The notes: generated from the sequence alone by a model not told the origin. A stretch of DNA of 64,000 bases from Paraspadella gotoi (GCA_051294375.1 CM119267.1:4571885-4635884); one strand, 5' to 3'. Shown: positions 55,201 through 58,200, counted from the first letter of the stretch. Program-made: numbers and translations.

Positions 55201-58200
55201 CTTTCCTCGTTGGTTCTATGGTGGACTAAAATCCACCAATCGTTCATCAGCGGCCATTGGTGCCGGAGGCAAGTCATTCGCCTCCCAACCCAAAGGTCCG
55301 GGGTTCTAGCCCGGTGGCCGCCTATCAGTTAAGAGGGACGGGGCGCTTAACCCGCCTGTAACACGGTGTTACAGCCTGATCCGAAGCTCAGGGACTGCTT
55401 ATATTGAACGGTTCTGTCACTAACATATATCAATAATTACTGTCTCTTCAGTTCTTTATAAAATTAAACTAGTCTCTAACATTTATAATTCGTTACTTTC
55501 GCATTATGGTCATTGGTCAATAAAGGAATAATTTATAAATTACTACAATTTGCAAATTAGATTGAGCCGCCTGTTGGTTTTCTCCCTCTGCAGAATCTCT
55601 ACTCCAAGTTGGGCTTGGAGAACAAGAAGACAGTTTTCCTGTTCGGCGATCAGCACGTCATGGAGGACTCCTTCCTCGAGCTTATAAACAACATGCTGAC
55701 ATCCGGAATGGTTCCAGCTCTGTACCCCGACGACGAGAAGGAAAATATCGTCGCGCAGGCAAGATTGGTTCCAATTCTGTCGATGATAAAGCAAGCTGCT
55801 TACTATTTATTGTTTACCATATACTTTAAACCTTAGCTCCGCCTAGAGGCGCAACACCATGGCTATGGATTTTCTCGCGAAGGGATCTGGGCCTATTTTT
55901 TGGACAAGTGCCATAACAACCTCCACATGGTCATCGCGATGTCTCCCGTCGGCGACACATTGCGCAACAGATGTCGAGCCTTTCCTGGTCCGTATTTTTT
56001 TTTTAATTAATAACTTCTCATGTCAGTTAATTATTAATATCAATATAAAAAATTATACTTAAATAATAAACATTTTTTTTTTAGGTTTAGTGAACAACTG
56101 CATAATCGACTGGTTCGACGCCTGGCCCGAACAGGCGCTCTACGCCGTCGCCGCCACCTTTATGGCCACCGATGTAGGCTTTCATTACATTTAATTATTC
56201 ATTACGAGTACGAAATTAATTACTAAACAAAGTCAAAGAAAACTTCTTCCCGTTTTTAGTATCAGTTGATCCCGGACGAGCATCGCGAGAGCATTATCAA
56301 CCACGTGGTCAACACCCACAATTTGGTCGGAGAGTACTCGGGCATTTTCGCCCTCAAACTGCGTCGGTACAACTACGTCACGCCCAAGAATTACCTCGAC
56401 TATCTCAAGACTTTCACGGGCCTCTTGGACGAGAAGGACTCTTACATTTTGGGCCAGGTCTTAAGAGGGAAGAGGGTCTTGATGATTATCGGATATGCAA
56501 TTATGCAATGTGATTTTAAACAATATTTCCTATTTCAAATGACAGTGTCAACGCCTCATCGGAGGAATGAAGAAGTTGGAGGAAGCGAGCGTCGAACTAA
56601 ACGATTTGAACGAAAAATTAGCCATACAAAAAGTCGCCGTTACTGGTTAGTCGAGGAGAAACCTCGAAGTATTTATATTTGAAGTATTTACATTTAATAT
56701 TTATATAGTGCGATTGGGGTGACGAAACTGCTCCAAAAACTTGGTTTTGTTTTTTTTTCCTTTTTAGAAAAAACGAAATCTTGCGAACAACTTTTAAAAG
56801 AAATCGCGGAAGGAACTGAGAAAGCGCAAGTGAAGAAAAACGCGGCAAAATCTAAAGCGAAAGAGATTGACGCGCAGACAAAGGAAATCGCTATAGAGAA
56901 GGTGAGGCCGTGGCGACGTTTGACGAACTTACCTTGCGCGACATAGAGTTTTCGGGAAGACGCCTCAAGTAGGCTGCTTCAAAGTGGTTGGGGCGTTCTT
57001 CGTTTCTTGGAGGAAAAATTAATGGTGGTTATGACACGTCGCTTTGTTCATTTAGTTAAATTTATTTATTTATTTATCGTAGGAAAAGTTTGTTTATTTT
57101 ACAGAAATAATTTTTATTTATTCATTTATTATTTATTTTTTTAATTAATTAATTTATTTCATTTATTTATTTATTTCCCGTCCAGGCTTCGGCGGAAGAG
57201 GCGTTGTCAGAGGCGCTCCCTGCCCTCGAACAAGCTCGACTCGCCCTCGACACTCTGGAGAAATCCGACATCACGGAGATTCGGAGTTTCGCGAAGCCGC
57301 CGCAAGTCGTGCAGCAAGTCTGCGAATGCGTCGTGGTGCTCAAAGGGTACGTCGGGGAATTGTGGATCAGACTTTTCTATTTCTTGAAAAAACATAATAT
57401 ACTTAATAACAAATATGAGCCCAATTTTTTTACTTATTTAGTTACAAAGACGTTTCGTGGAAGACGGCAAAGGGGATGATGGCTGACGTTTCATTTCTAC
57501 CGAATCTGAAAGAACTCGATGTCGACAACATCACGCAGTCACAAGTCAAAGCCGTGAAAGGTTTGATGCGAATTAAAGAAATAGAGAAAGAAAGAAAAAA
57601 GATGGAAAGAAGCTAAGAAAAAAAATACTAAGACAAAGATTAAGCATGTTCTTATTCTCGTTTCCCCCCCTGTCACTCATCCACCAAAACTCTTGGTCGG
57701 CAGGAATCCTCAAAGAAATGGGCGCGACCATTCAAGAGGTGCAGGTTGTGTCCCGCGCGGGCGGCGGCCTGCTGCGGTTTGTCGAGGCGGTTATGGGCTA
57801 TTGCGCCGTAGCCAAGGAGATCAAACCCAAGAGGGACAAAGTTGCTCGATTGGAGAACGTCTTCCACAAGAGCAAGAAGGAGTTGGACAAGGTCGTCAAT
57901 GGTGAGTCAACTGGACTTTGTTTTATGATAATTTAAGATCAACTGTTCGCATTGTTCTTTCTCTTCAGAATCGAACAATCTGGAGAAACAGTTGAAGATC
58001 CTCGGCGAAAAATACGAGAACGCGATGGTCGAGCGACAGATGCTGCAAGAAGAGGCGGAGATCATGGAACGAAGACTCATTGCAGCCGACAAATTGATAT
58101 CCGGTCTCAGCTCAGAGGGGAAAAGGTAGTTTAAGTGATTAATCATAATTTTTAAATATTGTGTAATGTGTATATAGCTGAGTGGAAAAGAACGTATGCG

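What the first reader, a model, noticed from the sequence alone, without database searches (positions are those of the whole stretch)
55217..55450. tRNA-headed SINE-like element carrying a type-P5 twister ribozyme whose P1 is a 6-nt palindrome
Seen: just downstream of a tRNA-like domain, 55326-55397 has the twister landmarks in P5-permuted order. These are P5 (CAGUU/GACUG), P2' GAGG, G-A-CGG (55337-55341), GGCGCU, U^AA (predicted cut 55348/55349), P2 CCC, GC, P3 hairpin, and P4 CCUGA/UCAGG with loop UCCGAAGC. Established: twister needs the UAA site, GA, the T1/T2 pseudoknots and an L4 of the form UNNNAAGC, and P1 can be shortened. Inference: P1 is only one base pair capped by a palindromic tetraloop, so two transcripts could form a 6-bp intermolecular P1. 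This would be a twister analogue of the dimeric minimal hammerheads of Penelope elements. Homology between copies also starts ~33 nt upstream of the tRNA-like part, which an ordinary SINE would not show and which fits a ribozyme-processed, retrozyme-like unit.
Basis: partly seen in the sequence, partly recalled or inferred. Interest (0 to 1): 0.85.

Follow-up and report, generated by a model that had tools for sequence, protein, structure and literature searches.

The report
Retrotransposon ends carrying pair-gated twister ribozymes
This repeat is most likely not a SINE but the leftover end-repeat (solo LTR) of a tiny animal retrotransposon, in which a tRNA-like likely promoter is followed by a twister-shaped RNA predicted to cut itself; a second repeat family in the same window has the same design with a different six-base palindrome, so the cutter likely works only when two end-repeats pair up.

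Summary
The twister landmarks are at the stated coordinates, and P5, P2, P3, P4, T1 and T2 all pair; Rfam's twister models do not score them. The carrier is probably not a SINE. The 234-bp unit has sharp ends in hundreds of contig junctions, a 4-bp target duplication, a CA end and no tail; in a related organism one contig continues from its 3' end into a tRNA-Trp primer-binding site. That fits a solo LTR of a Helenus-type TRIM (Kojima 2024), with a twister where published Helenus LTRs mostly have a T-run.

A second high-copy family in the window (6223-6479) has the same layout in a largely different sequence: tRNA-like head, P5-order twister, bulged 3-bp P2, 5-bp P4, and again a self-complementary hexamer in place of P1 (CGGCCG versus GGCGCU). 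T1, P1, P2 and P4 differ between the families and still pair.

Best model: P1 forms between the two identical LTRs of one transcript, so only full-length RNA is cut, and it may then circularise as plant retrozymes do. Cleavage, dimer dependence, transcription and circles are untested; the palindrome evidence rests on two families.

The parts
55217..55450 (+). Family-1 unit, 234 bp, read as a solo LTR (ends TA...CA), in an intron of the DNAH10 gene
   Evidence: Loose ends of laid contigs pile up at 55217 and 55450 (X1 164 and 195; X5 58 and 81; X7 31 and 45); host exons match dynein heavy chain 10
55213..55216 (+). Left target-site duplication GTTC
   Evidence: Same 4-mer at 55451-55454; boundaries set independently; the 4-mer's window frequency is 0.003
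55451..55454 (+). Right target-site duplication GTTC
55217..55249 (+). 33-nt leader (likely U3) with a 7-bp hairpin 55219-55238; 55239-55246 can pair with 55405-55412
   Evidence: Folds (window copy)
55250..55322 (+). tRNA-derived head with A box (55258-55269) and B box (55302-55312); likely Pol III promoter, not a tRNA
   Evidence: local similarity to window tRNA genes; not called by ARAGORN or Rfam
55326..55397 (+). Twister-type motif in P5 order; predicted general-base G at 55337, predicted cut 55348/55349
   Evidence: All named helices and both pseudoknots pair; compare the Rfam consensus lines and S. mansoni twisters in PMC8501958 Table 1
55342..55347 (+). Self-complementary hexamer GGCGCU in place of P1
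   Evidence: Self-duplex -8.3 kcal/mol, best 1.1% of 4096 hexamers
55398..55450 (+). 3' part (likely U5), no T4 run, ends CA; a related end in organism B is followed by a tRNA-Trp PBS
   Evidence: No T4 run before 55578; X10 loose end behind 55450 against PBS sequences
5607..5784 (+). Second family-1 copy; lacks 56 nt (T2, P3, P4, L4, P5 3' strand); hexamer carries a CpG-type change; flanking 4-mers match at 3 of 4
   Evidence: X1 contig record 1 matches 5687-6240 with 0 differences
6223..6479 (+). Family-2 unit, 257 bp here, TG...CA ends, 4-bp duplication AATT (6219-6222, 6480-6483); this copy lacks about 28 nt of its tRNA-like head
   Evidence: 3' end from 97 loose ends at 6479 in X1; 5' start inferred from the loose-end letters before 6239, the TG and the duplication
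6332..6406 (+). Family-2 twister-type motif, same layout; hexamer CGGCCG at 6346-6351, predicted cut 6352/6353
   Evidence: Found by the descriptor; pairs listed; weak partial Twister-P5 match 6365-6401, 17 bits, E 0.28, below the 37.6 cut-off

Best explanation
The stretch is most likely a solo LTR of a Helenus-type miniature retrotransposon whose LTR holds a tRNA-derived, likely Pol III promoter followed by a twister-type motif predicted to self-cleave, and whose palindromic P1 likely forms only between the two LTRs of one full-length transcript. Shown in sequence: sharp ends, 4-bp duplication, A/B boxes, every twister helix except P1, a self-complementary hexamer in both families, no T4 run inside either LTR. 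Inferred: Pol III starts at the head of the 5' LTR and reads through twister 1, U5, PBS, a short internal region and U3 into the 3' LTR. The two identical twisters then swap halves: the hexamers form a 6-bp P1, which must be palindromic because both strands come from identical LTRs. Both UAA sites are cut. The unit-length RNA has no terminal repeat and would be circularised by a host ligase, as proposed for plant LTR retrozymes. In the circle and in solo LTRs the single twister has no stable P1 and would stay mostly off, which would keep circles intact and spare host pre-mRNA. A Ty3/gypsy element with a tRNA-Trp primer (CsRn1-like) would supply reverse transcriptase and integrase. If only the 3' twister is cut, the ribozyme replaces the terminator and ordinary LTR reverse transcription follows. 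Odds by step: LTR/TRIM identity about 0.88; selected twister fold 0.9; active in some context 0.75; cross-copy P1 needed for efficient cutting 0.55; circular intermediate 0.4.
For: LTR: sharp ends with unrelated flanks (agreement 0.40-0.46); exact 4-bp duplication at the 55.2-kb copy and at family 2, 3 of 4 at the 5.6-kb copy; one X10 contig runs from a family-1-like 3' end into a 14-mer that fits the CsRn1 PBS consensus (PMC2582038 passages) and matches the start of Helenus-2_SyJa-I at 13 of 14; one X11 contig holds the 3' part of a family-2 unit, 139 other bases, then the 5' part of the next unit on the same strand (record 12), the layout of a two-LTR TRIM. Twister: T1 is CGG/CCG in family 1 and GGA/UCC in family 2; the first P2 pair is G-C versus U-G; P4 differs at 2 of 5 pairs and pairs fully. 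Among family-2 copies the P2 bulge varies, a P2 G.U appears as A-U in about 10% of X1 depth and a P3 G.U as G-C in X11. Of the 9 listed substitution sites of X10 and X11 inside the motif, 8 lie at the P3 loop (6367-6374) and the ninth is that G.U-to-G-C change. Phage twisters scored by Rfam share the same T1/L4 letters as family 1 (L030, L035). Dimer: hexamers rank in the best 1.1% and 0.17% of 4096 for self-duplex energy; outer and inner pairs differ on both sides between the families (G.U to C-G; C-G to G-C), and the inner pair cannot form within one strand; a 1-bp P1 costs 3.9 and 1.3 kcal/mol in the monomer; the swapped dimer beats two active-like monomers by 11.7 and 16.3 kcal/mol, pseudoknots not counted. 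Precedent: amphibian hammerheads with one pair capped by a palindromic tetraloop need dimers (PMC7229834 passages). In supplement part 7 of PMC10886601, 22 of 25 Helenus LTR entries have a T4 run after the B box (counted by eye); these two families have none.
Against: No cleavage, RNA or circle data; X7 is only guessed to be RNA. No Rfam twister score for family 1. P2 is one pair short of the consensus. The palindrome rests on two families that may share an ancestor; for the independent one, the chance that the inner four bases are self-complementary is about 1 in 16. P1 is reported as dispensable for twister cleavage (PMC6154101 passage), though inefficient without it (PMC8501958 section 17). 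The monomer's off-state hairpin still has lower computed energy than the swapped dimer (2 x MFE -48.0 versus -44.1, and -60.0 versus -51.7). PBS and two-LTR layout were each seen in one contig of another organism or sample, not in organism A; no PPT was seen. Family 1 starts TA, not TG. Among genomic copies the hexamer's CpG decays like other CpGs (5.4% at 55344 in X1). 49 variant rows were not shown, including 6 of 22 X11 sites and 2 of 11 X10 sites.
Confidence: 0.5

Rival explanations
1. Same LTR element, but the twister cuts as a P1-less monomer and only forms RNA ends in place of the Pol III terminator; the palindromes are incidental or only tune the rate.
For: P1 dispensable in the env22 twister (PMC6154101 passage); S. 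mansoni variants with poor P1 cleave (PMC8501958 section 19); only two families are in hand.
Against: Both hexamers are self-complementary with changes on both sides, including the inner pair; the monomer prefers an off-state hairpin that ties up P2; all 3 copies in the window lie in sense orientation in DNAH10 introns (weak, n=3).
Confidence: 0.24
2. The dimer forms between two separate transcripts, including solo-LTR transcripts; cutting is gated by RNA concentration, not by a second LTR in cis.
For: Most visible copies are solo units (unrelated flanks) and the family is abundant; the swapped dimer is the same structure in trans.
Against: A solo-LTR RNA has no PBS and so could not be copied by an LTR-type enzyme; a second LTR about 120 nt away on one RNA (X11 record 12, family 2) would outcompete a partner in trans.
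Confidence: 0.1
3. The twister is a catalytically dead relic that was copied along with the LTR.
For: No Rfam score; shortened P2; one window copy has lost half the motif.
Against: Two families that differ widely in sequence keep every core base and pairing; listed differences in other organisms avoid the core.
Confidence: 0.09
4. A tRNA-derived SINE or Sm-alpha-like tandem retroposon moved by a LINE or Penelope element.
For: tRNA head near the 5' end; S. mansoni has Pol III SINE-like repeats with hammerheads (PMC6765202 passage).
Against: Fixed ends, 4-bp duplication, no poly(A) or simple-repeat tail, PBS-Trp after the 3' end; no head-to-tail joint among the 15 best-supported joints (50 not shown).
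Confidence: 0.07

Closest known systems
Helenus TRIMs (TRIMp3), Kojima 2024, PMC10886601 (main text parts 1-4 of 6 read; word search; supplement parts 1 and 7 of 11 read; motif searches)
   Same: tRNA-like sequence with A/B boxes inside a short LTR, 4-bp duplication in animals, many solo LTRs, Gypsy-type PBS including tRNA-Trp, short internal region, several families in one genome.
   Different: In the published LTRs I read, the tRNA-like part is mostly followed by a T-run and a short tail; here a twister-type motif follows and there is no T4 run. 'Twister' does not occur in the paper and 'ribozyme' only in a reference title. Three L4 8- or 7-mers gave 0 hits in the consensus file (70-letter line breaks could hide some).
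Plant LTR retrozymes (Cervera et al. 2016, PMC4918200, passages; review PMC7761336, passages)
   Same: Non-coding LTR element with a self-cleaving ribozyme in each LTR, 4-bp duplication, PBS, solo LTRs, proposed Ty3/gypsy helper and circular intermediate.
   Different: Those use type III hammerheads and a tRNA-Met primer and were described without an internal Pol III promoter; animal retrozymes are described as lacking LTRs (PMC7229834 passages). Circles are shown there and only predicted here.
Type-P5 twister ribozyme (Rfam RF02684) and eukaryotic type-P1 twisters (RF03160; S. mansoni variants, PMC8501958: part 1 of 9, sections 17 and 19, passages)
   Same: UAA, GA, T1, T2, UNNNAAGC loop, C-G-closed P3 much like the RF03160 consensus, P5-type order.
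   Different: P1 reduced to a palindromic hexamer (the RF02684 consensus has an 8-bp P1 and no P3); 3-bp bulged P2; 5-bp P4; sits inside an LTR, not at the 5' end of an RTE element.
Dimer-dependent hammerheads of amphibian retrozymes and Penelope-like elements (PMC7229834 passages; PMC6765202 passages; the Lunse 2017 paper was not held)
   Same: One weak helix replaced by a palindrome that two copies can complete.
   Different: Different ribozyme class and different helix; the carrier is an LTR element.

Membership tests
Twister ribozyme (type P5) | UAA cleavage loop, GA with the catalytic G, UNNNAAGC loop | tested here: met
   both families
Twister ribozyme (type P5) | T1 and T2 pseudoknots | tested here: met
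   T1 differs between the families and pairs in both
Twister ribozyme (type P5) | P2, P4 and P5 helices | tested here: inconclusive
   P4 and P5 pair; P2 has 3 bp plus a bulge against 4 bp in the consensus
Twister ribozyme (type P5) | P1 helix next to the cut | tested here: not met
   Not formable in one strand beyond 1 bp; 6 bp between two copies
Twister ribozyme (type P5) | Rfam score at or above the gathering cut-off | tested here: not met
   Family 1 no hit; family 2 partial, 17 bits against 37.6. Filed as a twister variant, not an RF02684 member
Twister ribozyme (type P5) | Self-cleavage at U^A | not testable with these tools
   needs an in vitro assay
Helenus TRIM | tRNA-like sequence with A/B boxes inside the LTR | tested here: met
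   (family 1); family 2 B box is seen only in loose ends of other copies
Helenus TRIM | 4-bp target-site duplication (animals) | tested here: met
   exact at 2 of 3 window copies, 3 of 4 letters at the third
Helenus TRIM | PBS after the 5' LTR | tested here: inconclusive
   PBS-Trp after a family-1-like end in one contig of organism B; not seen in organism A
Helenus TRIM | Two LTRs around a short internal region with a PPT | tested here: inconclusive
   One X11 contig has the layout for family 2; its internal letters and PPT were not shown
LTR retrozyme | Ribozyme in each LTR, cut RNA, circular RNA | not testable with these tools
   motif present; no RNA run of raw reads was offered
SINE2 (tRNA-derived SINE) | 5' end at the tRNA head; poly(A) or simple-repeat 3' tail; variable-length duplication | tested here: not met
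   33-nt leader, fixed CA end, no tail, 4-bp duplication

The most novel reading that the evidence does not exclude
An animal LTR retrozyme: a Pol III-driven TRIM whose LTRs carry an obligate-dimer twister. The palindromic P1 counts LTRs, so that only a two-LTR transcript is cut to unit length and circularised, while solo LTRs and the finished circle stay uncut. It would be the first natural dimer-gated twister and the first ribozyme-bearing LTR element in animals in the literature searched, seen in two diverged families.
Probability: 0.35. Interest if true: 0.9.

Novelty: new variant of a known kind. Interest (0 to 1): 0.78.

Why it matters
Twister ribozymes have few assigned natural jobs. 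This gives a testable one, with a built-in prediction that monomer is off and a two-LTR RNA is on. It joins two element types described separately: tRNA-promoter TRIMs (Helenus) and ribozyme-bearing LTR elements (plant retrozymes). It offers an answer to how a Pol III transcript that starts in one LTR gets its end at the matching place in the other. It also shows a twister form that Rfam misses although it is abundant in at least one animal genome, so related forms may be widely overlooked. A twister that cuts only when two copies meet would be a compact RNA switch.

Tried and rejected
No whole genome is held for this window, so no genome-wide copy alignment, duplication census or R-scape-type test was possible. 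Rfam gave no twister hit for family 1. Pattern scans for relatives with this layout found only chance matches: metagenome contigs 27, viral contigs 37, 6 and 34, prokaryote genomes 0 and 3. Searches (13 loci; 4 loci) were used to see Rfam's twister consensus; 7 of the 17 hit a twister model. No RNA holder listed; this says nothing on expression. Contig depth was not used as a copy number. A dynein exon search did not place the host below 'animal-like' (best identities 73-76% to diverse metazoan proteins). Helentron/HINE reading: considered for the 5' hairpin and the 8-9-bp internal inverted repeat; rejected because of the 4-bp duplications and the PBS. HDV-like reading of the head: no matching layout seen by eye. 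ARAGORN's tRNA-Tyr at 6324-6411 is the family-2 motif, not a tRNA. No further copies of either family in the window by nhmmer. Earlier findings of this scan: nothing by sequence, place or the dimer words; one search gave phage twister-tRNA notes without bearing here. Literature: nothing in the listings (0 papers), 14, 26, 41, 52, 62, 63, 80 and 81 describes a twister in an LTR or a dimeric twister; I saw listings only, except for the papers named as read. The library lacks most subscription papers, Roth 2014 was not read, and Repbase/Dfam could not be searched, so the families may be deposited there without the ribozyme being noted.

Full report
Setting. The window is animal-like DNA. The flanking exon 54932-55177 matches axonemal dynein heavy chain 10 (E 6e-34), as does an exon at 5856-6080 (E 3e-5). 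Exons run along the + strand from 41.4 to 62.1 kb. The finding lies in a DNAH10 intron, in sense orientation. The host group was not resolved, and no whole genome is held.

Observation. P5 (5 bp), P3 (8 bp), P4 (5 bp), T1 (3 bp) and T2 (2 bp) pair fully. P2 has 3 bp and one bulged base. P1 is a single G.U pair over GCGC, which makes the hexamer self-complementary. In the window copy P3 and P4 are strongly predicted (pair probabilities mostly 0.9-0.99) and P5 moderately (about 0.36); P2 is not predicted, because a competing hairpin takes those bases. Rfam finds no twister, even at E up to 10. The consensus lines suggest why: RF02684 has an 8-bp P1 and no P3, and RF03160 has a different strand order. 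The same lines, and Table 1 of PMC8501958, show how closely the 3' half follows eukaryotic twisters, down to the C-G-closed P3. Two phage twisters that pass the RF02684 cut-off carry the same T1 and L4 letters (L030, L035). A core descriptor hit 4 of 300 resampled windows once each and the real window twice. None of 107 linear-pattern matches from public collections had both T1 and P4 fully paired.

The carrier is probably an LTR, not a SINE. Laid contigs show a large family with fixed ends: 17,096 pieces in run X1, with loose ends at 55217 (164) and 55450 (195), also in X5 and X7, and with unrelated flanks (542 further loose-end rows not shown). With these independently set ends, the copy is flanked by GTTC on both sides (window frequency 0.003). 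The unit ends in CA and has no tail and no T4 run. In organism B (X10), one contig matches the last 38 bases and continues into one base plus a sequence that fits the CsRn1-clade tRNA-Trp PBS consensus (PMC2582038 passages) and matches the start of Helenus-2_SyJa-I at 13 of 14. Helenus elements are TRIMs with a tRNA-like sequence in the LTR, 4-bp duplications in animals, Gypsy-type PBSs and many solo LTRs (PMC10886601). The 33-nt leader is then U3. The element's ends do not coincide with the predicted cut, so they are not ribozyme-made. Limits: the PBS was seen once and in another organism; no PPT was seen; family 1 begins TA, as does one LTR entry at the end of supplement part 1. The window copy differs from most copies at five listed positions, none in the catalytic core; the minor variants are mostly CpG-type.

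A second family repeats the design. The descriptor's other hit, at 6341-6397, lies in a different high-copy repeat that ends at 6479 (97 loose ends in X1) and is also present in X7, X10 and X11. It has TG...CA ends and a 4-bp AATT duplication if it starts at 6223; that start is inferred from the loose-end letters, the TG and the duplication. Its tRNA-like head is partly deleted in this copy; the missing B-box region shows in loose ends of other copies. BLAST and nhmmer do not link the two families, yet the layout is the same: head, P5, short linker, bulged 3-bp P2, GA, T1, six bases, UAA, P2, GC, P3, 5-bp P4, UNNNAAGC. T1 is CGG/CCG in one and GGA/UCC in the other, and P2, P3 and P4 differ while still pairing. 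Among family-2 copies the bulged base varies, a P2 G.U is A-U in about 10% of X1 depth, and a P3 G.U is G-C in X11. Of the 9 listed substitution sites of X10 and X11 within the motif, 8 are at the P3 loop; X10 also has one base inserted after P4, and one low-depth X11 contig lacks 3 bases at 6397. 49 rows were hidden. One X11 contig carries the 3' part of a unit, 139 other bases and the 5' part of the next unit on the same strand, as a two-LTR TRIM with an internal region near 120 nt would.

The palindrome. The six bases are GGCGCU in family 1 and CGGCCG in family 2. Both are self-complementary (64 of 4096 hexamers by Watson-Crick pairs, 216 with G.U) and rank in the best 1.1% and 0.17% for self-duplex energy. 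The outer and inner pairs change on both sides between the families. The inner pair joins adjacent bases and cannot form in one strand. A half-swapped dimer is a nested structure and is 11.7 and 16.3 kcal/mol more stable than two monomers held in the active-like fold, but 3.9 and 8.3 kcal/mol less stable than two monomers in their off-state hairpin; pseudoknots are not in these sums. This is evidence from two families only, which may share an ancestor. P1 is reported as dispensable, though cleavage without it is inefficient.

Mechanism (inferred). Pol III starts at the head of the 5' LTR and reads into the 3' LTR. In supplement part 7, 22 of 25 Helenus LTR entries have a T4 run after the B box (by eye); here the twister stands in that place. 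A P1 made by two identical LTRs has to be a palindrome, which explains the constraint. Cutting at both sites gives a unit-length RNA without a terminal repeat, the situation for which circularisation and tRNA-primed copying of the circle were proposed in plant retrozymes, with solo LTRs among the possible products (PMC4918200 passages). After ligation the circle holds one twister with no stable P1 and would be stable. Solo LTRs in introns would rarely cut host RNA; all 3 window copies are in sense orientation, which fits but is weak. If only the 3' site is cut, about 99 nt of terminal repeat remain and ordinary LTR copying suffices. Rivals are monomer cleavage (0.24), dimers in trans (0.10), a dead relic (0.09) and a SINE (0.07).

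Comparison and novelty. It works like a plant LTR retrozyme, sits in a Helenus-like LTR, and uses the palindrome trick of amphibian and Penelope hammerheads. It is not an RF02684 member by score or by P1, and Helenus membership is met for the tRNA-like LTR and the duplication but only indirectly for PBS and two-LTR layout. Animal retrozymes are described as lacking LTRs, and known retroelement twisters lie at RTE 5' ends. The Helenus paper does not mention twisters, and its consensus file gave 0 hits for five L4/P4 motifs and no twister context for the others; parts 2-6 and 8-11 of that supplement were searched but not read. Nine paper searches listed nothing on a twister in an LTR or a dimeric twister, within a library that lacks most subscription journals.

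Verdict. This is a new variant that combines known kinds. Interest 0.78. The full novel case, an obligate-dimer twister that gates circular RNA production in an animal LTR retrozyme, has probability about 0.35.

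Noticed in passing
window 6223-6479: Second twister-bearing, tRNA-headed LTR family; ARAGORN miscalls part of it as tRNA-Tyr (6324-6411).
   Followed up: yes
table 5c (X1, joint 6483 to 5604): One contig has a family-2 end almost directly followed by a family-1 start; another joins 6285 to 5692. 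The two families may cluster or nest.
   Followed up: no
window 19051-23667 and 36597-41165; 16729-18888 and 24689-26861; 7815-16479 against 27275-36660 (inverted): Long duplicated blocks at 68-97% identity, with indel-ridden copies of a tRNA gene cluster and N gaps; looks like error-rich gap filling or misassembly inside the DNAH10 locus.
   Followed up: no
window 51707-51899: Full U2 snRNA gene (180 bits) on the + strand in a DNAH10 intron; about a dozen tRNA genes also lie within the locus.
   Followed up: no
window 13024-13741, 20534-20582, 38072-38122, 47744-47906, 53507-53569: Another dispersed repeat family with a shared AT-rich 50-60-bp end; type not determined.
   Followed up: no
window 6153-6192, 24072-24384, 45719-46150: A further short high-copy repeat with inverted copies, also present in X10 and X11.
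   Followed up: no
L042:152-206 (-): Phage twister candidate (Twister-P5 25.3 bits, below cut-off) with a 3-nt P2 strand and a 5-bp P4 like the two families here, but with a long spacer where P1 would be.
   Followed up: partly
window 50505 (-): Hammerhead-like core (CUGAUGA, short hairpin, CGAAAC) on the minus strand; no Rfam hit at the gathering cut-off.
   Followed up: no
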